A DNA stretch of 64,000 bases, taken from a bacterium (GTDB lineage: Bacteria; Patescibacteriota; Patescibacteriia; SBBB01). Where the stretch lies: NCBI GenBank assembly GCA_005239895.1, contig SBBB01000022.1, positions 4,098-68,097 on the forward strand, written 5' to 3'. This document shows, one piece after another, positions 1,665 through 57,172 of this stretch. A program made the translations under genes and the position numbers. Below the pieces are notes generated by a model. It saw only the letters and a program-made list of their open reading frames with translations, was not told where the DNA came from and did not search any database. The number at the start of each line of letters is the position of its first letter. The first letter of the stretch is position 1.

Positions 1665-1762
1665 AAAAAAATATTACACTGCGTGTGACTTATACTAAAT
1701 ATTATAGAAGAGTTGACTTCCTGGGTCAATTTTAATTAGTTAAATCAACTGTATCTACCAAA

Positions 1763-1858
1763 ATAACTAAAAAACACTAAAAAAATACATATTACAAAAG
1801 GCCTTCATTGCTTATGAAAGGCCCAGTCCGTCACTCATCTATATTTACGAATGACGGA
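1763..1858 (-). terminator. Conserved 96-nt 3' element, copy 1 (two tandem hairpins and a U-run on the minus strand), downstream of LuxR gene 1
   Basis: Read on the minus strand: hairpin CCGTCATTC..GAATGACGG, then GGGCCTTTCAT-AAGCA-ATGAAGGCC followed by TTTTGTAATATGTATTTTTTT. Identical to 3713-3809. Confidence 0.6.
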
Positions 1859-1888
1859 CAAAAAAATAAAAACTATTATTACTCGTCG

Positions 1889-2293
1889 TTACTTGAGTAA
1901 CATGGCTAGTACCTCTAACCTAGATGTTGCGTCTGTCTTTCTCCTGATATGACGCATGTGCTCTCTAACGGTTTCGGTTGTCACATTAAGCATCTCGCCA
2001 ATATGCTCATCTTGCAAACCCTTAACAAGATACTTCACTATATCTGCTTCGCGATTAGTAAATACACCCATCTCAGGTTTGATCAAAACCAAATCCCCCA
2101 AAGAGATGTGCAAAGCATCCAGGTATCTTAAAATAATAAGAGCAACTTTGGTTTTTACAGTCTTTGCATCAAACCCTGCACCATCGCTGTTTTTCTTGAC
2201 ACCCATAACATGCTGAGCCAGGTCAAGAAGCTCCATAACATCCGTTGTTAAATCTGAAATTATTAAGTCGGGTTTACTGTTATTTGGTTTCAT
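1889..2293 (-). CDS. LuxR/GerE-family HTH transcriptional regulator (small, C-terminal HTH)
   Basis: 134 aa; C-terminal ...NREADIVKYLVKGLQDEHIGEMLNVTTETVREHMRHIRRKTDATSRLEVLAMLL typical GerE/LuxR HTH. Confidence 0.65.
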   Translation of the reverse strand: MKPNNSKPDLIISDLTTDVMELLDLAQHVMGVKKNSDGAGFDAKTVKTKVALIILRYLDALHISLGDLVLIKPEMGVFTNREADIVKYLVKGLQDEHIGEMLNVTTETVREHMRHIRRKTDATSRLEVLAMLLK

Positions 2294-2400
2294 CTGAACT
2301 GTAACACATTGTATTTACACTCCTTTCTTATCGGCTACGATTGTTATACATTGTATTGCAAGCCTTAATTCTAAGCCCAAAATATAAACTATATCATACA

Positions 2401-2429
2401 AGAGTAGCGTATTAACACTGTTTTGTCAA
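2401..2429 (-). promoter_or_regulatory. Putative sigma70-like promoter of LuxR gene 1 (TTGACA-17-TACTCT on minus strand)
   Basis: Minus-strand TTGACA at 2424-2429 and TACTCT at 2401-2406. The same architecture and flanking motif AGTAGCGTAT..TTTTGTCAA recur upstream of LuxR gene 2. Confidence 0.4.
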
Positions 2430-2496
2430 CAAAACTAATTAATAAAAATTTTTAAAAAGAAAATAAATATATCAATAATTATTTTGAAAAAATACT

Positions 2497-2530
2497 GGCA
2501 CACGCAACTAAACTTTCTTTGCGTGTGCCA
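2497..2530 (-). terminator. GC-rich hairpin GGCACACGC-N15-GCGTGTGCC followed by U-rich tract on minus strand (terminator of ORF 2559-3437)
   Basis: Perfect 9-bp inverted repeat. A paralogous hairpin at 4583-4616 carries the compensatory pair A/T to G/C. Confidence 0.5.
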
Positions 2531-2558
2531 TATCGTTAAAGCATATGAATAATATTTA

Positions 2559-3437
2559 TCACTGCTTGACATGATCTCTTTTTTGCATTTCTGACCATGG
2601 TATTTTTCCTGCATTATTATACTTCTCGCGCATTGACCGCGCATATAAACTAGTTAGCAGGTTATGGACGCGATTACTCCCCTTGCGCCACAGCAAGCTT
2701 AACTTGGTCGCAAGGTTTTGTGTATTGCGAGTGGACTGAATAATATATGGAGACTTATGTGTATTTTTTGGACGAACTGATCCACTGGATATTGATACTA
2801 CTTTTTTAACAGGTTGAGGTGTTACGACTTTAAATCTCTGAACCTCCATAAATGTCAAAACTATTAAACGTGTGCAAAAATTGACATAACCATGCTCCTC
2901 AATGAACCCTAATTTAAACAAAATTGAAAAATGGGAATTAATACTTGAGATTTTATGATCGTCCTTTTCAGATAACCATACCAACATCATAAAAGCATTA
3001 ATATCACTACACTTCAGATCGTCAATTGTTCGCACAGCCTGAATAGTTCTATCCATAACGTCCATCTGAGACTGACTTGTTTGACTTGAAATTTTATAAT
3101 CCTGTTTCTGTGCCTTGATTGGACTATAAAAATCTAATATTATAGCCAAAATAATACGCACGGGAAAATCAACGCGACCACGGTTCTCTTCACTGTTACC
3201 TTGACCTACTCCAGCATCTATTGTGATAAGCCCTAAATCATCTAAAATTAAAAACGCTGAGTGGTCAGACAGAATAAACACATCATTATATGACAGTGTT
3301 TTCAACATCTGAAAAGCCGCAATCATGTTTTGGTCTGTGCTCTTTCTTAGTTTATTGATCGCGTTGAGTTTATCACTAATATAATCCGCTATGCTCTTTG
3401 CACCTTGCTTTTGATCCATGTCTCTCCTTTCAATCAA
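2559..3437 (-). CDS. hypothetical protein (island-specific, higher GC)
   Basis: 292 aa ORF with no recognised motif; codon composition is GC-richer than the core genome. Confidence 0.45.
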   Translation of the reverse strand: MIERRDMDQKQGAKSIADYISDKLNAINKLRKSTDQNMIAAFQMLKTLSYNDVFILSDHSAFLILDDLGLITIDAGVGQGNSEENRGRVDFPVRIILAIILDFYSPIKAQKQDYKISSQTSQSQMDVMDRTIQAVRTIDDLKCSDINAFMMLVWLSEKDDHKISSINSHFSILFKLGFIEEHGYVNFCTRLIVLTFMEVQRFKVVTPQPVKKVVSISSGSVRPKNTHKSPYIIQSTRNTQNLATKLSLLWRKGSNRVHNLLTSLYARSMREKYNNAGKIPWSEMQKRDHVKQ

Positions 3438-3607
3438 AAAGTGTTAGAAAACTAATTGTAAGCGTCGGTGTCGGTAATCACAAAATATCACACAATACAC
3501 AAAAATGTCAATTACCAACACTACCAACGCAAGACTAATTTATATGTAAAATTGCATGAAAACTTAACAAATCTACACATAAATGATATTGATAATGACT
3601 GTGCATA

Positions 3608-3745
3608 ATGGTTTTACACGTAACACGTTTTTACGGTTCATGTACGGATAAACAATTGGTATTGTTTTCTAGAAACTTTATTGGCATTCAGCACTTAGAT
3701 AAACCGCTACAAATAACTAAAAAACACTAAAAAAAATACATATTA
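3608..3745 (+). pseudogene. Truncated paralog of ORF 4771-5196 (39-aa remnant MVLHVTRFYGSCTDKQLVLFSRNFIGIQHLDK...)
   Basis: DNA and peptide homology to the N-terminal region of the 141-aa ORF (FYGSCT..QL..FSR..IGIQH.DK). The reading frame terminates inside the 96-nt repeat element. Confidence 0.4.
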
Positions 3746-3809
3746 CAAAAGGCCTTCATTGCTTATGAAAGGCCCAGTCCGTCACTCATCTATATTTACG
3801 AATGACGGA
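3713..3809 (-). terminator. Conserved 96-nt 3' element, copy 2, downstream of LuxR gene 2
   Basis: Identical to 1763-1858 except for one extra A. Confidence 0.6.
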
Positions 3810-3823
3810 TAAAAATTTATAAT

Positions 3824-4282
3824 TCATAATTTCAACATTCTCGCTATCAGTTGTAACCTTGAGGTTACTCCTGTCTTACCGCGAATATGGCGCATATGAT
3901 CTCTTATGGTTTCAACACTAATCTCCAACGCAGTTCCAATGTTTTTATCCGAGAAACCGTTTAGTAAGTACCACACAACATGTTTCTCGCGAGGAGTAAA
4001 TCGAACATCTTCTAATCTAGCTAAAACTAGATCTCTTAATGAAATGTTGAGTATTTGTATGCACTTTAACAAAGAAACAACCACCTCTTTCTTGTGCTCT
4101 TCGATCTGCTGCTTTAATCTAGGGCTCTGTTGCTGAAGTTTTGCAATCTTTTTTTCAAGCTCAGCAATCTGTTTCTTGACTATTATAATACCTGTAATGC
4201 GTTGCCGACTTCTATGATTTAGTCGACTTCTATGGTTTGCTTTTTTAATCAAGGTTGCTTTTTTAATCAAGGCTAATTTCAT
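3824..4282 (-). CDS. LuxR/GerE-family HTH transcriptional regulator (paralog 2, coiled-coil N-terminus)
   Basis: C-terminal HTH ...PREKHVVWYLLNGFSDKNIGTALEISVETIRDHMRHIRGKTGVTSRLQLIARML. Start chosen at MKLALIKK, which follows GGAGG (ATGAGGAGGAATATCATG). The ORF track extends to 4327. Confidence 0.6.
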   Translation of the reverse strand: MKLALIKKATLIKKANHRSRLNHRSRQRITGIIIVKKQIAELEKKIAKLQQQSPRLKQQIEEHKKEVVVSLLKCIQILNISLRDLVLARLEDVRFTPREKHVVWYLLNGFSDKNIGTALEISVETIRDHMRHIRGKTGVTSRLQLIARMLKL

Positions 4283-4361
4283 GATATTCCTCCTCATTTG
4301 CCATCTTACGGTTGCTGTACCTTGCATTACCTGAATTCTAAAAAATATGAACCTTGCTATA

Positions 4362-4390
4362 AAAGTAGCGTATAAGTCTTATTTTGTCAA
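4362..4390 (-). promoter_or_regulatory. Putative promoter of LuxR gene 2 (TTGACA-17-TACTTT on minus strand)
   Basis: Minus-strand TTGACA at 4385-4390; conserved with the 2401-2429 region. Confidence 0.4.
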
Positions 4391-4426
4391 TAGTGAAAAA
4401 GTTTATAAAGTTAAAATTTTAGATCG

Positions 4427-4466
4427 TGACACCCTATCACGATCGTGACGAAGTGTCACGGCAATA
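4427..4466. promoter_or_regulatory. Nested palindrome CGTGACAC-N-TCACGATCGTGA-N-GTGTCACG (operator-like site)
   Basis: 12-bp perfect palindrome TCACGATCGTGA embedded in an 8-bp inverted repeat. It lies in the divergent region between LuxR gene 2 and the 141-aa ORF. Confidence 0.35.
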
Positions 4467-4582
4467 ATATTTAAATCACATTTACTTAATTAAATTTTTC
4501 AAAAATAAATAAAACGAAGACACTTGGTGCGATCGCATCAAATATCACATAATAATATAAAATAAGACCTAAATAAATACGG

Positions 4583-4616
4583 GCACGCGCTATAAAACTT
4601 TCTTTGCGCGTGCCAT
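4583..4616 (-). terminator. GC-rich hairpin GGCACGCGC-N15-GCGCGTGCC (paralog of 2497-2530)
   Basis: Perfect 9-bp inverted repeat, with a conserved loop (aaactttcttt) and flanks. Confidence 0.45.
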
Positions 4617-4770
4617 CAAATTAGAATGGATAATAAACCTCATTGAAAGAGCAATATTACTACCGAAAAATATAAATTTGACAAATCTGCAGCCAAATGA
4701 TATTTATAATAGCTGTACGCAATGGTTTTATGCGTAACTAATGAAACATCAAACCATATAGGAGGATCAA

Positions 4771-5196
4771 ATGGGACAAACAACCCAAACAAAACTGGTA
4801 ACATATTTTTACGGATCATGCACACTTGAACAATTGGCATCATTTTCTAGAGATGTTATTGGCATTCAGCATTCAGACAAACTGCCAAAAAACAATATAG
4901 TAATGCCGATATCTGTAATGCGCCAAAGATTTCACCGGGTTTATTGCGAGCAGGGCCAAATAATTGAACCGCCCCGTGTAATGGGTTTTCGCAATATATT
5001 GGTTGGAATATACGAACACACAAAAATCTCTAAAGCCAAATGGAAATCAAAAAGAAAAAATATCTTAATAGTACAACGAACTAACGACAACGAATTTATT
5101 CTAAAACTCGAGCAAGTAAATCGTAATAGTAATTACCATTACATACTTACCAAGCTTGACATCAAGCTCACACACCTCGAGCTAGACCATAAATAG
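4771..5196 (+). CDS. hypothetical protein (141 aa), full-length member of the family truncated at 3608-3745
   Basis: Strong SD AGGAGG 5 nt upstream of the ATG. A paralogous fragment with mostly synonymous differences supports it being a real coding gene. Confidence 0.5.
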   Translation: MGQTTQTKLVTYFYGSCTLEQLASFSRDVIGIQHSDKLPKNNIVMPISVMRQRFHRVYCEQGQIIEPPRVMGFRNILVGIYEHTKISKAKWKSKRKNILIVQRTNDNEFILKLEQVNRNSNYHYILTKLDIKLTHLELDHK

Positions 5197-7158: not shown

Positions 7159-7260
7159 AAAATGATTTTAATTAAATCTTAATAATTATTAACTTAGGTG
7201 CCTTGCTCCTAAGTTGTTGCTACGTAAATGTGCTTGCACTACGAAGCCTTGGCGAAGTAG

Positions 7261-7331
7261 TGGACCTGAGGGGAATCGGACCCCTGCCATCCGGATGCAA
7301 ACCGGATACACTACCACTATGCTACAGGCCC
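7261..7331 (-). tRNA. tRNA-Ala (anticodon UGC)
   Basis: Minus-strand cloverleaf: acceptor GGGCCTG/CAGGTCC with a G3:U70 pair, anticodon arm TCCGG-TTTGCAT-CCGGA, discriminator A. The T-loop is atypical (TCCGATT). Confidence 0.55.
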
Positions 7332-7479
7332 TAAATATAAAATTAAAAATTCTAAAACCTAAAATCTAAACAAAGCAAAAACTCAAATGTTTCAAACTAA
7401 AATAGTTTAAAGTTTTGTATTTTAAATATTTAAGTTTGTTTGGGATTTAGGATTTATCTATAATTTTTAATTCTAATCT

Positions 7480-7734
7480 TTATAAAATGCCACCAAATAA
7501 GGGTTTAATTATAGACAATACAATTTCACCCAAAAAACCAGTGAGATATAAAAAGGCTATAACCATTATTAATATACCCAAAAGTTTATAAAATAATCTA
7601 GTGCCACCTTGTAATCCTAGATACTTTTCAGCAAAATCTACGCGACCAAAATTTTCTAATAGCCACTCTGATTTTGATACTATTAAAAAACCTAAAACAA
7701 TCCCCAAGGGACCAAAAATCAAACGTAATATCAT
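7480..7734 (-). CDS. small membrane protein (84 aa)
   Basis: Two to three hydrophobic helices; no other evidence. Confidence 0.35.
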   Translation of the reverse strand: MILRLIFGPLGIVLGFLIVSKSEWLLENFGRVDFAEKYLGLQGGTRLFYKLLGILIMVIAFLYLTGFLGEIVLSIIKPLFGGIL

Positions 7735-7821
7735 ATAATTAATAAATTATTTTAAACTAATTGATAATTTAATAATTTTATTATATCTATTAGTTCTAAA
7801 GAACACAATACTTTTTTTAAG

Positions 7822-8640
7822 CTACCATGCTTCCAGCAATTTAGATTGCCAAATATATATCACTTTACCTAAACCAAATAAATTATAATTTAAAACCGTG
7901 GAACTGCCATAAACTATATAAACTCCACCCAAAAAAATTAAAATTAATCCTGAAAATAATCTTATATTTTTGAAAACGCGAATATTATAATTCGGAAAAA
8001 AGAAAAGCAGTATTAAAAATGGAGTGAATACTCCCAAAACATATAATAGAATCAAAAGCGCTGAATAAATATAATTATCAGAATTAGAAGCCATAAATAA
8101 AATACTAAACAAAACCGGCCCCACGCAAGGATTAAAACCTGCCGCAAAAAATAACCCAAACCATACATTCAGGGTTGGATGATTTTTTAAAAAATTAGAC
8201 CAAGTAACCGGCAATTTAAATCGATCTAATAATAAAATAATTCCCAGCAACAATATCGCGACCCCCGAAAACAATACAATGTAGCTTTTATTAATAATTA
8301 GTAATTGACCAAAAAAAGTAACACTAAAACCTAGTAGTAAAAAAATTATAAAAAATCCTCCAGCGAAAAATAATATATTTTTTAAACGTTCCTTTTTGCT
8401 TTGGGTTTTTAAAGATATTCCTGTCACTGCCAAACCAATGGGAAGCATGCAAGGACTAAAAAACGACAACAAACCGCCCAAAAATGCCACCAACAAAGAA
8501 ATATTGCGTATATTGGCAACACTGTTCTTTACAGCTGAATCTAAAAGCTCTTCACTTACAGGCGGTACAAAATAATAAACACCTATAAATAGTATTACAA
8601 CTAACAAAAAACTTATAATGTTAATAACTCTGGTCAACAT
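7822..8640 (-). CDS. ccdA: CcdA/DsbD-family thiol-disulfide transmembrane electron transporter
   Basis: Polytopic protein; conserved cysteines in TM helices (FSPCMLP, FNPCVGP). Confidence 0.65.
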   Translation of the reverse strand: MLTRVINIISFLLVVILFIGVYYFVPPVSEELLDSAVKNSVANIRNISLLVAFLGGLLSFFSPCMLPIGLAVTGISLKTQSKKERLKNILFFAGGFFIIFLLLGFSVTFFGQLLIINKSYIVLFSGVAILLLGIILLLDRFKLPVTWSNFLKNHPTLNVWFGLFFAAGFNPCVGPVLFSILFMASNSDNYIYSALLILLYVLGVFTPFLILLFFFPNYNIRVFKNIRLFSGLILIFLGGVYIVYGSSTVLNYNLFGLGKVIYIWQSKLLEAW

Positions 8641-8713
8641 AGAAATCTAAAAACAAATATAGTATACTTTGATTATATTAAAAACAATTTAAAATACCAA
8701 ATTATAAATATTA

Positions 8714-9511
8714 ATGAATTCACTTATGCATCTACTAATGAATCGTGTTATTTTAACTGGTTTATTATTATTAAACATATTATTAGTTTTCTTCTCTCCG
8801 CAGGCGGGATTAGAAACCTTATATCAATTTATAATCGTATTGGGAGCAATTTTAATTTGTGAAACTACAATTCATTTTTTAAAAGGCTATCATTTAATAT
8901 TATATAGTAGTAGTAATGGATTTATTTCAGCTATGATAATCAGCTTACTATTGCCACCACGCCAAGTACCTGTACTAGCCTTGATATTAATTGGAGTAAT
9001 CACAAGTTTATCATCCGAATTTATACGTCATCAAAACCGACCGATTTTTAATCCTACAGCCTTGGCTTTAATTATAACTTCTTTTATATATTCATCTTTA
9101 GCCTATATTTGGTCCCCTAACGCTTTTCTTGCCCCAACTGTTTTATTATCTATAATTGTAATCACACTTAGTAATAGGTGGCATTTAGTCGCTGGATTCT
9201 GCGCGCCTCTACTTATTGCAGGACTAGTAAATATATTTCAATCTAATAATTATAGTACTTTTAATTTGTTAGTTGGGGCTATATTTTTTATGGGCATTAT
9301 GTTAATTGAACCTAGGTCATCACCCTTAAATACGCACGGACAAGTTTTTTTTGGTATTATAATCGGACTATCCTATTTATTTTTAAATTCCGAACAATTA
9401 AAAAATCCACTACTACTAGCTTTATTAATAGGTAATATTGCTGTTCCCCTTCTTAATAACCTATTTATTCAACATAATCATCAAAATCCAGTCCCCGACT
9501 TAGTAAAATAA
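8714..9511 (+). CDS. polytopic membrane protein (265 aa), function unknown
   Basis: Hydrophobic throughout. Confidence 0.45.
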   Translation: MNSLMHLLMNRVILTGLLLLNILLVFFSPQAGLETLYQFIIVLGAILICETTIHFLKGYHLILYSSSNGFISAMIISLLLPPRQVPVLALILIGVITSLSSEFIRHQNRPIFNPTALALIITSFIYSSLAYIWSPNAFLAPTVLLSIIVITLSNRWHLVAGFCAPLLIAGLVNIFQSNNYSTFNLLVGAIFFMGIMLIEPRSSPLNTHGQVFFGIIIGLSYLFLNSEQLKNPLLLALLIGNIAVPLLNNLFIQHNHQNPVPDLVK

Positions 9512-9516
9512 ATAAA

Positions 9517-9552
9517 TGTAAGAAACTGGCGCGATCGCGATGGTTTCTTACA
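9517..9552 (+). terminator. Hairpin TGTAAGAAAC-N16-GTTTCTTACA immediately after the stop of 8714-9511
   Basis: 10-bp perfect stem; the loop contains CGCGATCGCG; followed by TTTG. Confidence 0.4.
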
Positions 9553-9579
9553 TTTGTACTATACAATACAGCAATAATT

Positions 9580-9617
9580 AATGTTTAGGAGTTGAACTCC
9601 TAAACATTGGTTTTTTA
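9580..9617 (+). terminator. Rho-independent terminator AATGTTTAGGAGTT-GAACTCCTAAACATT plus GGTTTTTT (member of a palindrome family)
   Basis: 14-bp perfect stem plus a T-run. A near-identical hairpin lies at 51464-51491. Confidence 0.65.
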
Positions 9618-9685
9618 AAAATAAATCCATATATTTCAACATTTATGAAGTATTATGACTTGAATTTAGTATAAAATACCAGTAC

Positions 9686-9817
9686 TTGACCCTGTTAGAA
9701 ATCGCGATCGCTACAAAATATACGCAAAGACCTGTATACTCAACAAAGGAGTCGTTATAAAGAAAATTTAACTCTGTTTAATACCTAGATCGCGACCTGT
9801 TTCTAACGGGGTTGACC
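9686..9817. mobile_element. MITE-like repeat, copy E1 (TTGACC-CTGTTAGAAATCGCGATCGC ... GATCGCGACCTGTTTCTAACGGGG-TTGACC)
   Basis: ~25-bp imperfect terminal inverted repeats with direct TTGAC at both ends; related copies at 20535, 35483, 51517 and 57059. Confidence 0.55.
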
Positions 9818-9841
9818 ATACATATATTTTCATGATAAAAT
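9812..9841 (+). promoter_or_regulatory. Outward promoter formed by the E1 right end: TTGACC-18-TGaTAAAAT
   Basis: The -35 hexamer lies inside the repeat terminus, with an extended -10 downstream; it would drive the MBL hydrolase gene at 9957. Confidence 0.4.
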
Positions 9842-9956
9842 ACATGATGTTAATTTAACATTTTAATCAACAATTTAGGCCATTCTGGATTGCAAATTTT
9901 AGACAAAATCTAGGATTTATAATCTACAATGTTTCACTAATCTAATTATACACATT

Positions 9957-10625
9957 ATGCATATAACCTGGTTTGGACAAGCGTGTTTTAAAATTCAAAC
10001 CACTATTAAAGACCAAGAAGTAACTATAATTACAGACCCCTACTCTAAAGAGCTGGGTTTAAAATTGCCCAGAATCTTATCAGCCGATATTGTAACTGTC
10101 AGTCACCAGCATTATGATCACAATAATGTAGATTTAATAGGAAAAAGTAAACAAGAACCGTTTATTATAAATCATGTCGGAGAATATGAAGTAAAATCTG
10201 TTTATATACAAGGTATATCTACTTATCATGATAAATCTAAAGGAGCAGAAAGAGGAATGAATACAGTTTATAAAATGTATTTGGAGCATAATATAGTACT
10301 AGCGCATTTGGGTGATATTGGTCATGTATTAACGACCGAACAATTAGACGAACTGAATGGTGTTCATATTCTCTTAATACCCGTGGGTGGAGTATATACT
10401 ATAGATAGCGCTGATGCTCAAAAAATAATTTCTGAAATTGAACCTAAAATAGTTATACCCATGCACTACGATCTACCCGGCTTAAAAGTTGACTTGGATC
10501 CCGTAGAAAAATTTTTACACGCCCTAGGAATTAAAGAGCACGAACCCCAAACTAAACTAAAGATTAGTAAGAAAGATTTAGAGAAAGAAGGAACCCAGAC
10601 GATAGTTCTAACCCCGAGTTCTTAA
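9957..10625 (+). CDS. MBL-fold metal-dependent hydrolase (UPF0173 family)
   Basis: HQHYDH metal-binding motif and an MBL-fold pattern. Confidence 0.65.
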   Translation: MHITWFGQACFKIQTTIKDQEVTIITDPYSKELGLKLPRILSADIVTVSHQHYDHNNVDLIGKSKQEPFIINHVGEYEVKSVYIQGISTYHDKSKGAERGMNTVYKMYLEHNIVLAHLGDIGHVLTTEQLDELNGVHILLIPVGGVYTIDSADAQKIISEIEPKIVIPMHYDLPGLKVDLDPVEKFLHALGIKEHEPQTKLKISKKDLEKEGTQTIVLTPSS

Positions 10626-10630
10626 AATTT

Positions 10631-11014
10631 ATGTCCGGTTTTTCAAAAATATTTCGACGCGAAATAGGAAATCTAAAATGGGACTTAAAACGCCTAAGAA
10701 AATATCCTGAAAAAACCAAACGTAAAATAGTAGCTTACGGAGTTGGAATAATTAGTTTACTGTTATTAACAATCTTGATGACCTTATCTAAATATGCAAT
10801 AACCACCACAACACCAGATAAAAACACGAATCCGAGCCCTGAAATGGAGAATCTTCAAACCAAGTTGTTGGACTTACAACAAACCATAGAAAAACATTTT
10901 GACAGTTTAAAAGAAGTCCGAAATCGTTACAAAACTTTAACGCCTGAACAAATAAAAATTATTGAGTCTAAGCTTAAATCAACAACAACTATTGAATATG
11001 ACCGAACAAAATAA
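10631..11014 (+). CDS. hypothetical membrane-anchored coiled-coil protein (127 aa)
   Basis: One TM helix followed by a coiled-coil-like C-terminus. Confidence 0.35.
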
Positions 11015-13466
11015 AAATATATTTGATATAGGAAAAGTAGAAAATAAAAATATCGTTACGGAAATGCAGGAATCCTACTTAGATTACGCCATGTCAGTTA
11101 TCGTTGCCAGGGCTTTACCTGACGTACGCGATGGACTAAAACCCGTTCATCGACGCATACTCTACGCTATGTGGCAATTAGGTTTAAAATCCAATAGCAA
11201 ATATCGCAAATCAGCCATGGTGGTTGGTGAAGTTTTAGGTAAATATCATCCCCATGGAGATGTCGCAGTCTACGATTCCATGGTGCGTATGGCTCAAGAT
11301 TTTTCACTGCGCTACACTTTAATTAATGGACAAGGCAACTTTGGTTCGGTGGATGGAGATAATGCAGCTGCTATGCGTTACACGGAAAGCAAACTGCAAG
11401 CTTTAGCCGAAGAGTTATTATTTGATTTAGATAAAGAAACCGTACGTTTTGTAGATAACTACGACTCCAGCACCACGGAACCATCCGTATTACCAGCTAA
11501 AATACCCAATCTTTTAATAAATGGCGGCATGGGAATCGCGGTTGGTATGGCAACCAATATTCCCCCTCATAATTTAGGAGAAACCATTGATGCAACTCTA
11601 TGCTTAATTGATAATCCGGAAGCAACCATCGAAGATCTAATGTGTTTTATTAAAGGTCCTGATTTACCAACGGGTGGTATTATTTTTGATAAAGCTGAAA
11701 TTCAAAACACTTATACTACGGGACATGGAAGTATTATCACGCGCGGTGTGGCGGAAATCGTGGAAGAAAAAAATGGTCATCAAATAATTATTTCCGAGTT
11801 TCCTTATCAAGTAAATAAATCTGAAGTTATTATAAATATAGCCAACTTGGTTAGAGATAAACAAATTGAGGGTATCAAGGATATCCGAGACGAATCCAAC
11901 AAAGACGGAATACGAGTAGTCATAGAACTCAAAAGAGATTCTTTTCCCAATAAAATTTTAAATCAATTATACAAATTCACAGCTCTTCAAAACACTATTC
12001 ATGTAAACTTACTGGCCCTAGTAGATGGCATCCAGCCTAAAGTTTTAAGCTTAAAAAGTATTCTGGAAGAATATATTAAACACCGCCAAACAGTTGTGAG
12101 AGCTAGAACGCAATTTGAGTTAAAAGAAGCTCAAGCCAGGGTGCATATTTTACTAGGTCTTAAAATCGCTCTGGATAATATAGATGCAATTATTAAACTC
12201 ATTAAATCTTCCGCGGATCGCAATGACGCTCGTGAAAATTTAATGAAAAAGTACAAACTAAGTGAAATTCAATCCAATGCGATTTTAGACATGCGTTTTG
12301 GACAATTAGCCAAACTACAAAGATTTGAAATTGAAAATGAACTAAAAGAAAAACAATTGTTAATCAAGCATCTACAAGAAATACTATCTTCCCCTAAAAA
12401 ATTAATGGGAATTATTAAAGCCGAACTAAATCATATTAAAGAAAAGTACGCAGATGAGCGTCGCACTAAAATTGTGCCCACTAAACTTACAGATTTTAAT
12501 CAAGAAGATATTATCCCTGATGAACCCACGGTAGTTGTCATCACTAAAGATGGTTATATAAAGCGACTATCACCAGACATATTCAAGGCGCAAACTAGGG
12601 GTGGCAAAGGTGTTATTGGCATAGAAACTAAGGCTGAAGATGTGGTGGATCAATTCTTGTCAGCCACTACTCATAATGACTTACTCTGTTTCACAACCCG
12701 CGGACGGGTGTTTAAAATTAAAGTTTACGAAGTATCCCTAACCTCACGCACAGCCAAGGGTCAAGCCTTGGTGAACTTCTTAAACTTACAAGAAAATGAA
12801 AAGGTTAGCGTAACTTTACCCTTAACCAAAACTCATAAGAGTGATGCTCAATATTTAGTCATGATCACCAAACGAGGTGTGATTAAAAAAGTAGCTATTA
12901 AATTTTTTGAAAATGTTCGCAAGTCTGGACTAACAGCTATAAAATTAAAACCTGATGATTGTTTAGAGTGGGTTAAACCATCTAGCGGCAAAGACCAAAT
13001 TATGCTCGTTACTACTTTAGGTAAAAGTATAAGATTTAAAGAAAGCAATGTGCGTGAAATGGGACGTGTAGCTGGTGGTGTGCGCGGCATTAGATTAGCT
13101 CCTAAAGATGAAATTGTAAGCATGGATATTGTGAGTGATGCCGTAAAACAAAAAAAGGAACTGCTAGTAATTACAACCCTGGGTTTTGGAAAAAGAACGG
13201 ATCTAAATCAATATCGCATTCAAGCCCGGGGTGGCTCAGGTATAAAAACCGCAAAAATTACACCGAAAATAGGTAAAATCATAAAAGCTTTTGTGGTTGA
13301 CTCGGAATTAAGTGAGTCTTTGGATTTAATTATTATTTCTCAAAATGGACAGGTTATTCGCTTACACTACAAAGAAGTAAATAAATTAGGACGAACCACC
13401 CAGGGAGTCAGAGTAATGAGATTCAAACAAAATGATGATTTAGTTGCTTCTATAGCGCTAGTTTAG
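10998..13466 (+). CDS. gyrA: DNA gyrase subunit A
   Basis: [29 protein letters not shown] and the rest of the GyrA N-terminal domain, plus a beta-pinwheel C-terminal domain. Start taken at MTEQNK; the ORF track begins at 10962. Confidence 0.85.
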
Positions 13467-13640: not shown

Positions 13641-13840
13641 ATTATTTTATAAAAAAACTCTAGAAAATTTGGCTAGTGGTTTCGTTGGTGGTTTAGTTTT
13701 TGGTTTAATTGTTGGATTTTTAGGGTAGTTTGGTTTTGTTGTAATTGTTTTATATTTTGCATAATTGTTTGTTTTTTAATTCCATTTCTTGTAATAAATC
13801 CTGTTTTATACTTAACCCCATAATCTGGACAGTTTTGGCA

Positions 13841-13893
13841 CTACTTAGTAACACTACTTAGTAACACTACTTAGTAACACTACTTAGTGGCAA
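13841..13893. repeat. 13-mer tandem repeat (CACTACTTAGTAA) x ~4
   Basis: Direct tandem copies visible in the sequence. Confidence 0.8.
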
Positions 13894-20301: not shown

Positions 20302-20375
20302 TAATATCCTTAAATCAGTGGTGCTATAAATAACTACTTGAAATCTCGGCAGCTTGCTGACCCTACAACAAACTA

Positions 20376-20406
20376 ACAATTAACAACGCTACAATATTAA
20401 TAATTT
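20376..20406 (-). pseudogene. Duplicated fragment of the hppA 3' end (encodes ..QIINIVALLI, compare hppA C-terminus [14 protein letters not shown])
   Basis: AACGCTACAATATTAATAA occurs at both 20385 and 20768. Confidence 0.4.
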
Positions 20407-20534
20407 GTAATCTGAATTCCCATTGCTTTTCTTGTCATTTCCGCGACTTGCCCTTCAAAGCCTTGGCGTAGGAGGGTGGGGGAATCCAGGAGCGTGCACG
20501 CTTGCAATTACTGCTCCAACCAATGTTAATATTA

Positions 20535-20643
20535 AACCCCGTTAGAGATTATAAAAACCAGTGTTGTCTATTTTAGATATAATTATTATTACTAGCTTGT
20601 TTAATTATAAGTATCAAGTACATATCTCCAACAGGGATTGACA
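20535..20643. mobile_element. Degenerate MITE-like repeat, copy E5 (homologous to 57059-57172)
   Basis: AACCCCGTTAGAGATTAT ... AGTATCAAGTACATATCTCCAACAGGGATTGACA aligns with copy E4. Confidence 0.45.
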
Positions 20644-20662
20644 TTCGTCTAATAATCGCCTA

Positions 20663-20700
20663 ATAATTGCCTATCATGTTTGGTGATCGGATCACCAAAC
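20663..20700 (+). terminator. Hairpin ATGTTTGGTGATC-GGATCACCAAACAT plus TGGTTTTTT
   Basis: 13-bp perfect stem plus a T-run; a related palindrome lies at 58007-58036. Confidence 0.55.
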
Positions 20701-20742
20701 ATTGGTTTTTTAAAACTCTTGTATAAAACTATTTTAACAACC

Positions 20743-22737
20743 TTACAACAACGACACAACCAATAACGCTACAATATTAATAACTTTCAACATGGGATTA
20801 ATAGCTGGGCCAGCAGTATCTTTGTAAGGATCACCAACTGTATCACCAGTTACAGCTGCAGCATGAGCTTGAGAACCTTTACCGCCGTAATTACCTTTTT
20901 CAATATATTTTTTAGCATTATCCCACGCAGCACCTCCGGTAGTCATAGATATCGCTACAAATAATCCTGTAACCAAACTTCCAATGAGCACTCCCATCAA
21001 AGCTGTTCTTCCTAAAATAAACCCAACTAAAACAGTTACTAATACCGGTAAAATAGCCGGTAAAACCATTTCCTTAAGAGCAGCCTTAGTAACAACATCA
21101 ACACATTTACCGTAATCTGGTTTAGTCTTATACTCCATAATTCCAGGCAACTCTTTAAACTGTCTTCTAACTTCTATTACAACGCTCTGTGCTGTTTTAC
21201 CAACTGCTCGCATAGCCAATGATCCAAAAGCATAAGGCAATAATCCACCCAATAACAGACCAATCAATATTTCAGGTTCAGAAAAATTAATCACTACACT
21301 TTTCTGCAATAAATTCTGAACTTCTTGATTGTACAATGAAAATAAAGTCAAACTAGCTAAAGCCGCAGAGCCAATGGCATAACCCTTGGTTACAGCCTTA
21401 GTTGTATTTCCTACTGCATCCAAAGCATCGGTTGTTTTACGAATATCCTTAGGCATATCTGACATTTCAGCTATACCGCCCGCATTATCTGTAATAGGAC
21501 CATAAGCGTCAATTGCCACAATCATTCCCGCAATAGATAACATGCCTAGGCTTGCCAAAGCTACGCCATAAATACCAACAAAGCTATAACTAACCCAAAT
21601 ACCAGCTAAAATAATAACTGTCGGTAAAATACAAGATTCTAAAGACAAAGCTAATCCTTCAATAATATTAGTACCGTGTCCAGTCGACGAAGCTTTAGCT
21701 AAGTTTTGAACTGGTTTAAAACTACAAGAAGTATAGTAATCAGTTACTAACATTAACAATGAAGATACAAACAAACCTGTTAACAATGCTCCCCAAATTT
21801 TCAAAGGAGAATAAATAGCATTATTAACAAAAAATTTATCAGCAATAAAATAGAACAATACAGCAGCAATAGCAACGCTTGCCCACAAACCCTTATACAA
21901 AGCTGACATGATTTTTTCTCCTTTTAGTTTAATAAACATAACACCAATCAATGAGGCCAAAACACCAGCCCCAGCTATACTCAAAATATATCCTTGATCG
22001 TATCCAGGAAATTGCATTTTAGATAACAAAATAGCAGCCGTGATTGTTACGACATAAGTTTCAAATAAATCAGCTGCCATACCAGCACAGTCCCCTACAT
22101 TATCTCCAACATTATCAGCAATAGTTGCTGGATTGCGTGGATCATCTTCAGGAATGCCAGCTTCTACTTTTCCAACCAAATCAGCTCCAACATCAGCAGC
22201 TTTAGTATAAATACCTCCACCTAATCTAGCAAAAACTGAAATTAAACTTGACCCAAAACTTAATCCTAGCAAAGCATGCACCAATGAATCATTCCCTGCA
22301 AAAGTATAAACTACTAATATACTTAATAACCCTAAACCAACAACCAAAAAACCAGTCACAGCCCCACCCTTAATTGATAAATCAAACGCTCGTTTTAAAC
22401 CATGCTCAGCTGCCTGAGCTACGCGCACATTAGATCGTACCGAAGCAAACATACTTAAAAATCCAACCAAGCCAGACATAAATGCTCCAAATAAAAATCC
22501 CCAAGCCGCAACATCTCCTAAAAATTTCCAAATTGCAATAAGTAAAACCAAAGCAACTATCGCAATAGTTTTATATTGTCTAATTAAAAAAGCTTTAGAG
22601 CCAGCTTGAATAGCAGCTGCTATTTCTTTCATTTTGTGGTTTCCATCTGGTTGCTGCATAATTATATATATTAAATAAAAACTATAACCAACAGACATAA
22701 TACTTATTAACCATGAAAAATATAAAAAATTAAGCAT
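20743..22737 (-). CDS. hppA: membrane-bound proton/sodium-translocating pyrophosphatase
   Basis: Multiple H+-PPase signatures ([51 protein letters not shown]). The true start is probably internal, near [11 protein letters not shown]. Confidence 0.9.
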
Positions 22738-35321: not shown

Positions 35322-35470
35322 ATTACGAGTTACGAGTTACGAGTTACGGATTACGAGTTACGATTTATGATTTTTGATTTAAAAACTTTACATTTGACAA
35401 TTGACATTTAACAACTGACAAAAATAAATTATTCTTGATTCTTGCCTAATGCCTAATGCCTAATGCCTAA
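35322..35470. repeat. Heptamer arrays: (GTTACGA)n, TTGACA-like x3, (CTAATGC)n
   Basis: Direct tandem 7-mers. Confidence 0.8.
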
Positions 35471-35482
35471 ATCTACGGCTGG

Positions 35483-35611
35483 GTTGACCCCGTTAGAAGC
35501 CGCGATCGCCACAAAAAAATATATTATATATTAAAAATAAACATAGTAATTTAATAAATACTTAACTCAACTTAATATTCAAATCGCGATCTGCTTCTAA
35601 CGGGGTTGACA
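35483..35611. mobile_element. MITE-like repeat, copy E2 (GTTGACCCCGTTAGAAGCCGCGATCGCC ... AAATCGCGATCTGCTTCTAACGGGGTTGACA)
   Basis: ~25-bp terminal inverted repeats with an AT-rich interior; same family as 9686-9817. Confidence 0.6.
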
Positions 35612-35634
35612 AATCCCTCAAACTAGTGTATAAT
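35606..35634 (+). promoter_or_regulatory. Perfect consensus promoter TTGACA-17-TATAAT created by the E2 terminus
   Basis: TTGACA at 35606-35611 (inside the repeat end) and TATAAT at 35629-35634. Confidence 0.55.
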
Positions 35635-35795
35635 GTATTCCAATAAATAATTGCATCCTGGTTCAAAATTGCTTTTATTAATAGATAGTGTATGGAATAA
35701 AGGTTTTTTTGAGAAAGGATGCAATCTAGGAGGACTGCCCTTTTTCAACCACTGTTGTATAACAGTGGAAAAATTAACTCAGGAGGAAAAGCCAA

Positions 35796-36025
35796 TGACT
35801 AAAATGACCAGCATCTCATTTTTCAACATGTCAAGCAGAGCGTATCACATGACGTTTAACAGGTGGCTCAGAGAGCAACATGCCCATGGTCAGGGCATGC
35901 CAACAACTAACACGCAAACACAGCAATTATCAACCCCAGTGAAAGAAACCAGGCAGTTCATTCTTTTCAAAAAAGATGGCACGGTTGTTTCACACGTCGC
36001 GCCAACCGTAAGCGCAACCGCTTAA
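35796..36025 (+). CDS. small hypothetical protein (76 aa) in a GC-rich patch
   Basis: AGGAGG lies 8 nt upstream of ATGACTAAAATG. Composition is GC-richer than the genome. The ORF track gives a longer 35651 start. Confidence 0.35.
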
Positions 36026-51306: not shown

Positions 51307-51463
51307 ATATTTTGGTAAATTAAATATATTAATAGTATATATTATACACTAATCTGGTAATGAAGACAATATTAATTGTCAATAAATCAGTATTTAGTTA
51401 TCACCAGGTTATATTACTTGATAGTTACTTAGTAGTTTCGCTACTAAATTGTTTCAAAAAAAC

Positions 51464-51491
51464 TAATGTTTAGGAGTTCAACTCCTAAACA
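51464..51491 (+). terminator. Hairpin TGTTTAGGAGTT-CAACTCCTAAACA (paralog of the 9580 terminator)
   Basis: 12-bp stem followed by GCCTTTTTA. Confidence 0.5.
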
Positions 51492-51516
51492 GCCTTTTTA
51501 ATCAAATGTAGTATTC

Positions 51517-51546
51517 AAATCTGGATTTACTTCTAACGGGGTTGAC
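51517..51546. mobile_element. Solo MITE terminus, copy E3 (TTCTAACGGGGTTGACAA)
   Basis: Matches the right ends of E1 and E2; as at 9580-9817 it lies downstream of the palindromic hairpin. Confidence 0.45.
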
Positions 51547-51615
51547 AATAACTACTATTTTATATACTATTTTTATACTATTTATATAGTATTTAAATAA
51601 CTAAAAACCTTTTCT

Positions 51616-56799: not shown

Positions 56800-57018
56800 T
56801 TATTTTATTAGCACTAGAGACAAAGATAATCCTAAAAATATAATAGAAAATATAATGGTTAAAAAATGTAAAATTTTTTCAACTCCTCTTTTAGCACTAT
56901 AAAAATTAAATGACGAGCCAAAAGCGCTCCCTAAGCCACTTCCGCGGTTTTGTAACAAAACCATTGTAATTAATAGTATAGAAACAATAATTAAAGTATA
57001 CTGTATATATATTTTCAT
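56800..57018 (-). CDS. secG: preprotein translocase subunit SecG
   Basis: 72 aa; LLQNRGSGLGSAFGSS motif between two TM helices. Confidence 0.7.
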   Translation of the reverse strand: MKIYIQYTLIIVSILLITMVLLQNRGSGLGSAFGSSFNFYSAKRGVEKILHFLTIIFSIIFLGLSLSLVLIK

Positions 57019-57036
57019 AGAAAAACAACAATATAT

Positions 57037-57065
57037 ATCATACCATATATACTAAAATCTGTCAA
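57037..57065 (-). promoter_or_regulatory. Outward promoter TTGACA-17-TATGAT (minus strand) formed by the E4 terminus, upstream of secG
   Basis: The -35 TTGACA is the terminal hexamer of the repeat; spacing is 17. Confidence 0.5.
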
Positions 57066-57172
57066 CCCCGTTAGAGGTTATTGAGAGGTATTTTGCTTAT
57101 TTTAAATTGAATTATGACTATTTCCTTGTTTATTTATTAGTATCAAGTATGAACCTCTAAACGGGGTCAACC
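57059..57172. mobile_element. MITE-like repeat, copy E4 (TGTCAACCCCGTTAGAGG ... CCTCTAAACGGGGTCAACCCCG), inverted orientation
   Basis: ~18-bp terminal inverted repeats; the interior is homologous to 20535-20643. Confidence 0.55.

What the first reader, a model, noticed from the sequence alone, without database searches (positions are those of the whole stretch)
9580..9841. MITE-like repeat family (5 copies) whose termini supply -35 TTGACA elements for neighbouring genes
Copies lie at 9686-9817, 35483-35611 and 57059-57172 (full), 20535-20643 (degenerate) and 51517-51546 (solo end). Each is ~110-130 bp. They carry ~20-25-bp imperfect terminal inverted repeats (CCCCGTTAGAAgcCGCGATCGC / GCGATC..TTCTAACGGGG) capped at both ends by a directly oriented GTTGAC(A/C), with an AT-rich interior. 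In three copies the terminal TTGACA/TTGACC sits at near-ideal distance from a downstream -10, pointing at the next gene. Two copies (9580 and 51464) are preceded by the same palindromic terminator hairpin. The family is either a small mobile element that donates promoters or a conserved terminator-promoter cassette.
Basis: seen in the sequence. Interest (0 to 1): 0.7.

Follow-up and report, generated by a model that had tools for sequence, protein, structure and literature searches.

The report
Hairpin mini-transposon lodged in promoter -35 boxes
The five repeats are real copies of a tiny, non-coding mobile hairpin element found in many uncultured bacterial phyla, and in this genome it sits exactly inside the -35 box of working-looking promoters, duplicating the box's first four bases rather than bringing a promoter with it.

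Summary
There are three full copies, one decayed copy and one solo end, each with a terminal TTGAC followed by a -10 hexamer 17-18 bp away.

The window is from a Patescibacteria (CPR) bacterium, not a cyanobacterium.

The family is very large. The same ends, CCCCGTTAGArr...yyTCTAACGGGG, occur in more than 240 fetched loci from Patescibacteria, Planctomycetota, Omnitrophota and other phyla.

In those loci the 4 bp flanking the inverted ends are identical on both sides but vary in sequence (TTTA, TTCA, TTGA, TCCA, CCAG and others). That is a target-site duplication, so this is a MITE-like transposable element with target TTNA|C.

The GTTGAC "caps" in the window are therefore the duplicated first four bases of a host -35 hexamer. 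Orthologous rpsL promoters in related lineages carry the same TTGACA with no element, with a solo arm, or with two unrelated full elements.

TTGAC at an element's right end has a -10 in 79% of cases, against 33% for other intergenic TTGAC.

The "MITE" reading is supported. "Donates promoters" is probably reversed: the element lands in, or survives at, existing -35 boxes. The "conserved terminator-promoter cassette" reading is rejected.

No transposase was found. No Rfam family or paper matched. It appears to be an undescribed variant of a known kind.

The parts
9686..9815 (+). Copy c1, full element. Left TSD TTGA 9686-9689, left arm CCCTGTTAGA 9690-9699, right arm TCTAACGGGG 9802-9811, right TSD TTGA 9812-9815. 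The extended stem contains GCGATCGC.
9812..9841 (+). Promoter match at the right end of c1: TTGACC-18-TAAAAT with an upstream TG. It faces the MBL-fold hydrolase gene (9957) and the gyrA operon.
35484..35609 (+). Copy c2, full element. Left TSD TTGA 35484-35487, arms 35488-35497 and 35596-35605, right TSD 35606-35609.
35606..35634 (+). Promoter match at the right end of c2: TTGACA-17-TATAAT (12 of 12). It faces the ORF at 35651-36025.
35466..35483 (+). Decayed right arm of an older tandem copy (AAATCTACGGCTGGG) abutting the left TSD of c2. It is homologous to the remnant next to c3.
57062..57170 (-). Copy c3, full element of sub-family B. On the + strand: TCAA 57062-57065, arm CCCCGTTAGA 57066-57075, arm CCTCTAAACGGGG 57154-57166, TCAA 57167-57170. 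A decayed arm of an older copy lies at 57171-57185.
57037..57065 (-). Promoter match at the promoter-proximal end of c3: TTGACA-17-TATGAT with an upstream TG. It faces secG (56800-57018, - strand).
20537..20643 (+). Copy c4, decayed sub-family B element. Left arm CCCCGTTAGA 20537-20546, degenerate right arm CTCCAACAGGGA ending at 20637, then TTGACA 20638-20643. The flanking 4-mers do not match (TAAA versus TTGA). The TTGACA-18-AATAAT match runs straight into a terminator and has no gene downstream.
   Evidence: (D3)
51488..51547 (+). Copy c5, the right half only. Solo arm TCTAACGGGG 51532-51541 followed by TTGACA 51542-51547.
   Evidence: (D2)
51542..51570 (+). Promoter match at c5: TTGACA-17-TACTAT. 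It faces rmlA (51616).
9581..9620 (+). Separate repeat, not part of the element: an intrinsic-terminator hairpin ATGTTTAGGAGTTGAACTCCTAAACAT followed by a T-run. Other copies are at 51467-51491 (bidirectional) and 20676-20715 (inner stem fully compensated).
   Evidence: (D6, I1)

Best explanation
The repeats are non-autonomous hairpin transposable elements (MITE-like, 28-135 bp).

Shown:
- The family is defined by terminal inverted repeats CCCCGTTAGA(r)(r)...(y)(y)TCTAACGGGG.
- It is flanked by a 4-bp duplication of the target.
- The reconstructed target is the asymmetric motif TT(T/C/G)A followed by C.

Inferred:
- In this Patescibacteria genome the target used is TTGA|C, that is, the start of a sigma-70-type -35 hexamer.
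- Insertion splits the promoter from everything upstream of it. Because TTGA is duplicated, it rebuilds GGGG|TTGACA-N17-TAnnnT on the gene-proximal side, so the host promoter stays intact.
- The insertion is therefore tolerated, which may make the -35 box a 'safe haven'.
- The left copy of TTGA plus the first C of the element forms a second, usually orphan, TTGACC.
- Repeated hits at the same TTGA leave tandem copies and decayed arms upstream. Internal deletion leaves solo arms such as c5.
- An unknown enzyme acting in trans moves the element. It is most simply a DDE transposase making 4-bp staggered cuts.
- The element does not bring the -35 hexamer, and nothing shows that it is needed for promoter activity.
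For: (1) Family and ends. Single metagenome-assembled genomes held several copies. In those hits, bases not required by the pattern are conserved: TT before GAC in 99-100%, AGA after GTT in about 96%, and C after the right TTGA in 92%.

(2) True duplications. Besides the TTGA-flanked copies, the genome loci hold 13 arm pairs with perfect 4-bp direct repeats of other sequence (TATG, CGAG, TTCA, CGTG, TTAA, TCCA, TTTG, TAAA, CCAG, CTTG, TGTA). They also hold nested insertions.

A metagenome scan that put no constraint on the flanks gave 75 of 125 elements with identical flanking 4-mers. Seven shifted-register controls gave 0-3 matches and permuted partners gave 17. The duplication spectrum was TTTA 41, TTCA 17, TTGA 9. 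The base after it was C in 73%.

(3) Promoter coincidence. A -10 (TAnnnT at 16-18 bp) follows 87 of 110 right-end TTGAC. The figures for comparison are 63 of 191 other intergenic TTGAC, 105 of 1623 coding TTGAC and 12 of 113 left-end TTGAC. In the unbiased set, by eye all 9 TTGA-class copies are followed by a -10-like hexamer about 15-17 bp on; under the strict TAnnnT test, 7 of 11 right-end TTGAC sites in that set passed. The sequence logo shows T/A/a/a/n/T exactly 17 bp after TTGACA, with no conservation in the spacer. A co-oriented ORF starts a median 80 nt downstream, and 93 of 112 start within 200 nt. By their N-terminal sequences these look like housekeeping genes: rpsL five times, plus tuf, nusA, greA, HU and others (read by eye, not searched against a family library).

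(4) The -35 pre-exists. At the orthologous rpsL promoter, L291-L297 and L299 are empty, L271-L290 carry a solo arm, L300 carries a decayed arm, and L058 and L083 carry full elements with unrelated interiors. L058 and L299 are homologous on both sides of the intergenic region, which is 251 bp in one and 56 bp in the other.

(5) DNA-level symmetry. Stem pairs 1-13 are at least 88% Watson-Crick and covary at positions 11-14. Neither strand is favoured in folding energy or in G-T versus A-C counts.

(6) In the window, all five copies carry the TTGAC plus -10 arrangement. Four of the 17 intergenic TTGAC promoter matches carry the element.
Against: - No autonomous copy or transposase was found. There is none among 30 window proteins scanned against family libraries, which include 23 of the 25 ORFs of 250 aa or more. 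No enriched transposase cluster appears in 240 loci. No long arm pair with a duplication encloses an ORF.
- No base-pair-precise filled/empty pair was obtained. The rpsL comparison spans lineages with 86-95% protein identity and diverged spacers.
- Two interior families are always in one orientation relative to the TTNA strand (21:0 and 9:0). A symmetric cut-and-paste element would not be expected to do this.
- The genome-collection sample was selected by a pattern that required TTGA, so its promoter statistics apply to that class only.
- Targeting of promoters cannot be separated from survival of neutral insertions in very compact genomes.
- Promoters are consensus matches only. No transcription data were available.
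Confidence: 0.7

Rival explanations
1. Promoter-donating MITE. GTTGAC belongs to the element, and each insertion creates a new promoter whenever a -10-like hexamer lies about 17 bp beyond the insertion point.
For: The terminal TTGAC is present in every window copy. AT-rich genomes offer many -10-like hexamers. Some Planctomycetota copies carry an internal TATAAT exactly 17 bp after the left TTGACC, so the element plus its left TTGA forms a complete inward-reading promoter.
Against: In related copies the flanking 4-mer varies and is duplicated, so it comes from the target. Empty orthologous rpsL promoters already have TTGACA at the same register, with a homologous spacer and -10. Only 10% of left-end TTGAC have a -10, against 79% of right ends.
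Confidence: 0.1
2. Cis-regulatory module. The arms are half-sites of a palindromic operator (TCTAACGGGG-TTGA-CCCCGTTAGA) for a widely conserved regulator, or they form an insulator or terminator hairpin placed upstream of housekeeping promoters. This could also be a domesticated MITE.
For: A 10-13 bp sequence is conserved across phyla. It abuts the -35 of what look like rpsL, tuf, nusA, greA, HU and lexA promoters. About a quarter of the TTGAC-type promoters in the window carry it. The same promoter is occupied repeatedly by different copies.
Against: In the unbiased sample most copies sit at TTTA or TTCA sites with no -10. Variable duplications, nested copies and mini-hairpins are hallmarks of insertion. 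Arms decay in c1, c3 and c4, and solo arms persist at promoters. Closely related lineages manage without it at the same promoter. There is no T-run after the hairpin. Separate canonical terminators lie next to c1, c4 and c5.
Confidence: 0.12
3. Single-strand (HUH/Y1, IS200/IS605-like) element. It inserts 3' of a TTNAC target in a fixed orientation, and its right end carries a copy of the target motif, so the 'duplication' is only apparent.
For: The target is asymmetric (TTNA|C) and resembles IS200/IS605 targets such as TTAC and TTGAT (my own knowledge of that family). Two interior families show strict orientation coupling, 21:0 and 9:0. The whole element folds as a hairpin. Many interiors carry a GCGAAGC-type mini-hairpin.
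Against: Both flanks are identical for many unrelated 4-mers, including CCAG, CGTG and CTTG. A guide-based mechanism would need matched changes in the element each time. The Patescibacteria GCGAAGC family is in random orientation, 12:10. The ends are true inverted repeats rather than two same-strand sub-terminal hairpins. No tnpA or tnpB was found nearby.
Confidence: 0.08
4. A family of small structured RNA genes closed by a conserved terminal stem.
For: The folds are strong. Some metagenome sub-families have conserved multi-hairpin interiors.
Against: No Rfam family matched at gathering score in the window or in 14 loci. Neither strand is favoured in folding energy or in G-U versus A-C counts. 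Interiors are unrelated between copies at the same locus. The left TTGACC lies too close for a transcript from it to include the 5' arm.
Confidence: 0.03

Closest known systems
Correia elements (CREE/NEMIS) of Neisseria
   Same: Both are roughly 100-150 bp non-coding elements with terminal inverted repeats and a target duplication. Both fold as hairpins, lie between genes, and have termini that coincide with promoter hexamers. The relevant paper, Siddique et al. 2011, was seen only as a cited reference; the details given here are from my own knowledge.
   Different: Correia elements have 26-bp inverted repeats of unrelated sequence and a TA duplication. Their promoter hexamers lie inside the element. 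They are confined to one genus. The present family has 10-13 bp conserved ends and a 4-bp TTNA duplication, the -35 comes from the target, and it spans several phyla.
IS elements with an outward -35 in the inverted repeat (hybrid promoters) and 'putative mobile promoters' (Matus-Garcia et al. 2012; my own knowledge)
   Same: A repeated mobile sequence ends in a -35-like hexamer that pairs with a resident -10.
   Different: In those cases the -35 is carried by the element and activates neighbouring genes. Here the empty orthologous promoter already has the -35.
piggyBac / IS1380-type DDE elements (a lead from memory: ends starting CC, 4-5 bp duplications, TTAA-like targets)
   Same: The ends start with CCC, the duplication is a short T..A 4-mer, and the site preference is strong.
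   Different: No transposase was found and no inverted-repeat identity was tested. The target is asymmetric (TTNA|C) rather than palindromic. This is a resemblance only.
IS200/IS605 family and its derived small elements (PATEs); REP/REPIN-RAYT
   Same: These are hairpin-forming small elements. IS200/IS605 has short TT-rich asymmetric targets and orientation-specific insertion.
   Different: Those families make no target duplication and have no terminal inverted repeats. REPs carry a GTAG-type 5' tetranucleotide and are linked to a RAYT gene.

Membership tests
MITE (generic non-autonomous TIR element) | Terminal inverted repeats | tested here: met
   Arm positions 1-13 pair in at least 88% of 122 copies. 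The window copies fold as hairpins.
MITE (generic non-autonomous TIR element) | Target-site duplication of fixed length and variable sequence | tested here: met
   75 of 125 unbiased copies have identical flanking 4-mers, against 0-3 in shifted-register controls. There are 13 non-TTGA duplications in the genome loci. c1, c2 and c3 have TTGA on both sides.
MITE (generic non-autonomous TIR element) | Small, non-coding and multi-copy | tested here: met
   Elements are 28-135 bp. There are 5 copies in 64 kb and several copies in single metagenome-assembled genomes.
MITE (generic non-autonomous TIR element) | Insertion polymorphism between related genomes | tested here: met
   The rpsL promoter is empty, solo-armed or full in related lineages. 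The junctions are not base-pair precise because the lineages have diverged.
MITE (generic non-autonomous TIR element) | An autonomous partner with the same inverted repeats that encodes a transposase | tested here: inconclusive
   None was found in the window proteins tested or in 1.7 Mb of loci. The public collections could not be scanned for arm pairs more than 600 bp apart.
Correia elements | TA target duplication and promoter hexamers inside the element | tested here: not met
   The duplication is 4 bp, TTNA. The -10 and the spacer lie outside the repeat.
IS200/IS605-derived small elements | No target duplication and no terminal inverted repeats; insertion 3' of a fixed target in one orientation | tested here: not met
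   Duplications and inverted repeats are both present. Orientation is fixed in two sub-families but random in a third.
REP / REPIN | No duplication, a conserved 5' GTAG-type tetranucleotide, and a linked RAYT gene | tested here: not met
   Duplications are present. No conserved tetranucleotide lies outside the arms. No recurrent neighbouring gene was found.
Integron attC site | 5'-RYYYAAC...GTTRRRY-3' boxes, with arrays of ORF cassettes | tested here: not met
   The order is the reverse (GTTAGA...TCTAAC), and the outer GTTGAC is a direct repeat, not inverted. The elements enclose no ORF.
Any Rfam RNA family | A match at the family's gathering score | tested here: not met
   Only tRNAs matched, plus an unrelated int-alpA hit elsewhere in L155.
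IS1380/piggyBac-related element | A DDE transposase of that family and matching inverted repeats | not tested
   The resemblance is recalled from memory only: CC ends and a 4-5 bp duplication.

The most novel reading that the evidence does not exclude
A promoter-homing transposon. An as yet unidentified transposase recognises the -35 hexamer itself (TTGAC), perhaps through a sigma-like DNA-binding domain or by tethering to RNA polymerase. It inserts so that the hexamer is regenerated. This would let a parasitic hairpin colonise about a quarter of the promoters of extremely streamlined CPR genomes without cost. Its hairpins may since have been co-opted to insulate promoters from upstream read-through. 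The same superfamily uses TTTA|C or TTCA|Y in other phyla, which would imply a reprogrammable, orientation-specific way of reading the target.
Probability: 0.3. Interest if true: 0.8.

Novelty: new variant of a known kind. Interest (0 to 1): 0.62.

Why it matters
CPR/Patescibacteria genomes are about 1 Mb and are usually regarded as poor in mobile DNA. Here a single hairpin element appears at roughly one in four recognisable promoters in the window, and it recurs at what look like rpsL, tuf, nusA and HU promoters in many lineages.

Its 10-13 bp ends are conserved from Patescibacteria to Planctomycetota and Omnitrophota. That implies either a very widespread mobilising enzyme that has not been identified, or frequent transfer between phyla.

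A transposon that lands precisely in the -35 box and rebuilds it would be a clean example of a "safe-haven" insertion strategy. The elements mark promoters in organisms that cannot be cultured. They also break short-read assemblies: both Logan contigs of this strain end close to a copy. In addition, they may drive rearrangements at promoter junctions, as in L058 versus L083.

If the hairpins have been co-opted, they would be a shared regulatory part of CPR promoters.

Tried and rejected
- Cyanobacterial origin, suggested by GCGATCGC. Rejected: the proteins are Patescibacteria-like.
- Rfam at gathering score, on the window and on 14 loci. No family matched.
- Viral contigs. The end pattern gave only chance hits in coding sequence, and the full-element pattern gave nothing.
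- Literature searches by sequence strings and by topic. No description was found. One apparent hit was an engineered oligonucleotide.
- One-strand RNA structure. Rejected because neither strand is favoured.
- attC, REP and IS200/IS605 membership. Each failed a defining feature.
- Guide-like covariation between the flanking 4-mer and the element. One suggestive A/G change at arm position 14 was contradicted by other members.
- Empty sites among the 240 fetched loci, by BLAST of joined flanks. Only self-hits were found.
- Strain variants of a Parcubacteria relative (P0014, 10 contigs). No polymorphism was seen, and that lineage has almost no copies.
- Exact-protein look-ups for window genes. Only short Logan contigs of the same strain were returned.
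- Long arm pairs with a duplication enclosing an ORF, and clustering of 1288 ORFs from the loci. Neither pointed to a transposase.
- Family scans of 30 window proteins (NCBIfam for 10, Pfam for 20). No transposase or integrase was found.

Full report
**1. The observation**

The repeat family is real. ACGGGGTTGAC occurs five times in the window against 0.24 expected, and no shuffle reached five. TCTAACGGGG with up to one mismatch occurs eight times against 1.7 expected.

Reading the five places and aligning them (A1) gives three full copies, one decayed copy and one solo end:
- c1: 9686-9815
- c2: 35484-35609
- c3: 57062-57170 (reverse orientation)
- c4: 20537-20643 (decayed)
- c5: solo right end, arm 51532-51541

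There are two sub-families, c1/c2/c5 and c3/c4. The ends pair. As single-stranded DNA the fold z-scores are -3.3, -5.4, -3.0 and -0.75 for c1 to c4.

Every copy ends in TTGAC(A/C) followed by a -10-like hexamer at 17-18 bp. The consensus scores are 10 to 12 out of 12. Four of these face a gene: the MBL-hydrolase/gyrA operon, a 124-aa ORF, secG and rmlA.

It lies at 9581-9608 and 51467-51491, and a third, fully compensated variant lies at 20676-20702.

**2. The organism**

GCGATCGC first suggested a cyanobacterium, but it occurs only four times. The proteins say otherwise. The closest relatives of the MBL hydrolase are Patescibacteria/Parcubacteria proteins at 57% identity or less. Other window proteins match family models for housekeeping functions such as NusA, Mur ligases, polynucleotide phosphorylase (PNPase), MetRS and SecG. 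The strain has no close relative in the collections.

**3. The family is very large and crosses phyla**

A strict two-ended pattern, GACCCCGTT-N78-108-CTAACGGGGTTGA, has a chance expectation of about 0.1 by my own estimate. The hosts were many Patescibacteria classes, Saccharibacteria, several Planctomycetota genomes with up to five contigs each, Omnitrophota, WOR-3 and others.

Bases the pattern did not require are conserved:
- TT before GAC: 99-100%
- AGA after GTT: about 96%
- C after the right TTGA: 92%

Interiors are shared within one metagenome-assembled genome but are unrelated between genomes. This is the usual picture for families of non-autonomous elements.

Nothing comparable turned up in viral contigs, in Rfam, or in the papers I could search.

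**4. The "caps" are target-site duplications**

I listed every arm pair in the fetched loci, whatever its flanks. This showed copies whose flanking 4-mers are identical on both sides but are not TTGA: TATG, CGAG, TTCA, CGTG, TTAA, TCCA, TTTG, TAAA, CCAG, CTTG and TGTA. It also showed nested insertions and 28-42 bp mini-hairpins.

Because the first scan required TTGA, I ran a second, unbiased scan of metagenomes using only the 10-bp arms. Results:
- 75 of 125 elements have identical flanking 4-mers.
- Seven shifted-register controls gave 0-3 matches; random partners gave 17.
- The spectrum is TTTA 41, TTCA 17, TTGA 9, TCCA 3, plus a few others.
- The reconstructed empty site is TT(T/C/G)A followed by C in 73%, with nothing conserved to its left.

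So the element ends at CCCC and GGGG, and the GTTGAC of the window copies is G (the last base of the arm) plus duplicated target.

Arm positions 11-14 vary between copies, even within this window (GAAA, GAAG, GAGG), yet stay complementary. Neither strand is favoured in folding energy or in G-T versus A-C counts. The symmetry is therefore a property of the DNA, not of an RNA made from one strand.

**5. The TTGA class sits in real promoters**

The logo downstream of the right end shows TTGAC(A), an unconserved 17-bp spacer, then T/A/a/a/n/T with a weak upstream TG.

| TTGAC location | With TAnnnT at 16-18 bp |
|---|---|
| Element right ends | 87 of 110 (79%) |
| Other intergenic TTGAC | 63 of 191 (33%) |
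| Coding TTGAC | 105 of 1623 (6.5%) |
| Element left ends | 12 of 113 (about 10%) |

In the unbiased set, by eye all nine TTGA-class copies are followed by a -10-like hexamer about 15-17 bp on, whereas the TTTA and TTCA classes show none. Under the strict TAnnnT test, 7 of 11 right-end TTGAC sites in that set passed.

A co-oriented ORF starts a median 80 nt downstream. By their N-terminal sequences these look like housekeeping genes: rpsL five times, tuf, nusA twice, greA twice, HU three times, lexA twice, infA, several ribosomal proteins and several aminoacyl-tRNA synthetases. I read these by eye and did not search them against a family library.

In the window, four of the 17 intergenic TTGAC-N16-18-TAnnnT matches carry the element.

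**6. The -35 was there first**

Homologues of the rpsL gene downstream of the L058 element gave the orthologous promoter in related Moranbacteria-like lineages. The promoter core is conserved throughout: TTGACAA, then TAnTATAG, then GAAAAGC...GGCTTTTT (A3). Directly upstream of TTGA there are four states:
- Nothing: L291-L297 and L299. The rpsL protein of L299 is 95% identical to that of L058.
- A solo arm, tttCTCACGGGG|TTGACA: L271-L290.
- A decayed remnant: L300 and L301.
- A full element: L058 (identical to L298) and L083. These two have unrelated interiors and unrelated upstream flanks.

L058 and L299 are homologous on both sides. The M50 peptidase gene is 75% identical, and the stretch from the -10 into rpsL is 81% identical. 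The intergenic regions are 251 bp and 56 bp.

This shows gain, loss and turnover of the element at one fixed -35 box. It argues against the element bringing the hexamer.

The left flanks of c2 and c3 (AAATCTACrGCkGGG) are decayed right arms. About 40% of copies elsewhere have G-rich left flanks, ranging from a full TTCTAACGGGG down to GGG. This fits repeated insertion at the same TTGA.

**7. Mechanism**

Shown: terminal inverted repeats, a 4-bp duplication, an asymmetric target preference, a position exactly at the -35, and turnover at an orthologous promoter.

Inferred:
- An enzyme acting in trans makes 4-bp staggered cuts at TTNA|C.
- In these lineages the site used is TTGA|C.
- Duplication rebuilds the -35 on the gene side, so the promoter survives.
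- Insertions elsewhere in such compact genomes are lost.

I cannot separate true targeting of promoters from survival of harmless insertions. Enrichment over other intergenic TTGAC (79% against 33%) is compatible with either.

**8. What does not fit**

No transposase was found.

Two interior families in the metagenome sample always lie in one orientation relative to the TTNA strand, 21:0 and 9:0, with independent flanks. The Patescibacteria family carrying AAGGCGAAGCCGCCT is random, 12:10. Fixed orientation points to strand-specific or asymmetric reading of the target, as in IS200/IS605. That family, however, makes no duplication and has no terminal inverted repeats. I leave this unexplained.

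**9. Comparison with known systems**

It works like a MITE and meets the generic definition. It resembles Correia elements in size, hairpin form and link to promoters, but differs in end sequence, duplication, host range and, most importantly, the origin of the promoter hexamer.

It fails defining features of IS200/IS605 derivatives, REP/REPIN elements and attC sites, and matches no Rfam family.

The CC-starting ends and the short T..A duplication recall IS1380/piggyBac-type elements. That is a lead from memory and was not tested.

**10. Verdict**

The "promoter donor" reading is probably reversed, and the "cassette" reading is rejected.

I found no prior description, so I rate it a new variant of a known kind. 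Its interest lies in the precise occupation of -35 boxes in streamlined CPR genomes and in the conservation of its ends across phyla.

Caveats:
- Promoters are predictions only.
- The genome sample was selected for TTGA.
- Phylum labels of metagenome-assembled genomes can be wrong. L058 is labelled Bdellovibrionales yet shares its rpsL locus with a Moraniibacteriota genome.
- No base-pair-precise empty site was obtained.

Noticed in passing
window 9581-9620, 51449-51505, 20676-20715: A repeated intrinsic-terminator hairpin, ATGTTTAGGAGTT(G/C)AACTCCTAAACAT. The third copy keeps the outer ATGTTT..AAACAT and the TGGTTTTTT tail but has a fully compensated inner stem (GGTGATC/GATCACC). Each copy lies next to an element copy (c1, c5, c4).
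   Followed up: partly
window 20360-20406 and 20740-20786: A 47-bp direct repeat (81% identical) brackets c4 and its terminator. The second copy overlaps the 3' end of the pyrophosphatase gene (20743-22737, - strand). It looks like a duplicated gene end left by an old insertion of about 330 bp.
   Followed up: no
window 20447-20474 versus 7233-7260; L047 left flank: A GAAGCCTTGGCGAAGT-like stretch lies just 3' of tRNA-Ala(TGC) (7260-7331, - strand). It recurs near c4 and also next to an element in a Komeilibacteria genome. It may be a tRNA-linked attachment-site remnant.
   Followed up: no
window 35448-35472 and 20650-20672: Short GCCTAAT-type repeats (TGCCTAAT three times) lie directly beside c2, and a similar GCCTAATAAT run lies beside c4.
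   Followed up: no
window 1760-5000: Duplicated non-coding modules (1779-1880 with 3730-3831, 2487-2531 with 4572-4616, 3560-3713 with 4674-4891) surround small ORFs of unknown function. This suggests tandemly duplicated gene cassettes that kept their promoters and terminators.
   Followed up: no
window 13839-13888 and 58517-58576: Perfect tandem repeats: a 13-nt unit (CACTACTTAGTAA, about four copies) and a 12-nt unit (CAGTAGAAGTGG, about five copies).
   Followed up: no
L076 216-257, 2773-2815, 3386-3428, 5440-5481, 7883-7924: Five 41-42 bp mini-hairpins with the family's arms sit inside a larger repeat with constant flanks. The loop occurs in both orientations, which suggests inversion across the arms or insertion in either direction.
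   Followed up: no
metagenome loci such as L141, L173, L194, L216, L227; also L155, L159, L241: Two interior sub-families are highly conserved across many contigs and have multi-hairpin interiors (...AATGCCCCGCTGC...GGGGTTTAATGCCCCG...; ...AAAGCCCCGGCATTTATGCCGGGG...). They always lie in one orientation relative to the TTTA target strand.
   Followed up: partly
Planctomycetota loci L021, L044, L046, L053, L095, L111, L128: The left TTGACC is followed 17 bp later by an internal TATAAT-like box, and the interior ends in a GC hairpin. In this sub-family the element plus the target TTGA forms a complete inward-reading promoter, possibly for a small transcript.
   Followed up: no
L052, L059, L072, L100, L118 (element flanks or interiors): DnaA-box-like TTATCCACA motifs occur next to or inside several element copies.
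   Followed up: no
L261-L270, gene at about 7264-11217: In a Parcubacteria relative the gyrA homologue downstream of the MBL hydrolase carries an intein with a LAGLIDADG domain (1317 aa). The window's gyrA (about 834 aa) has none.
   Followed up: no
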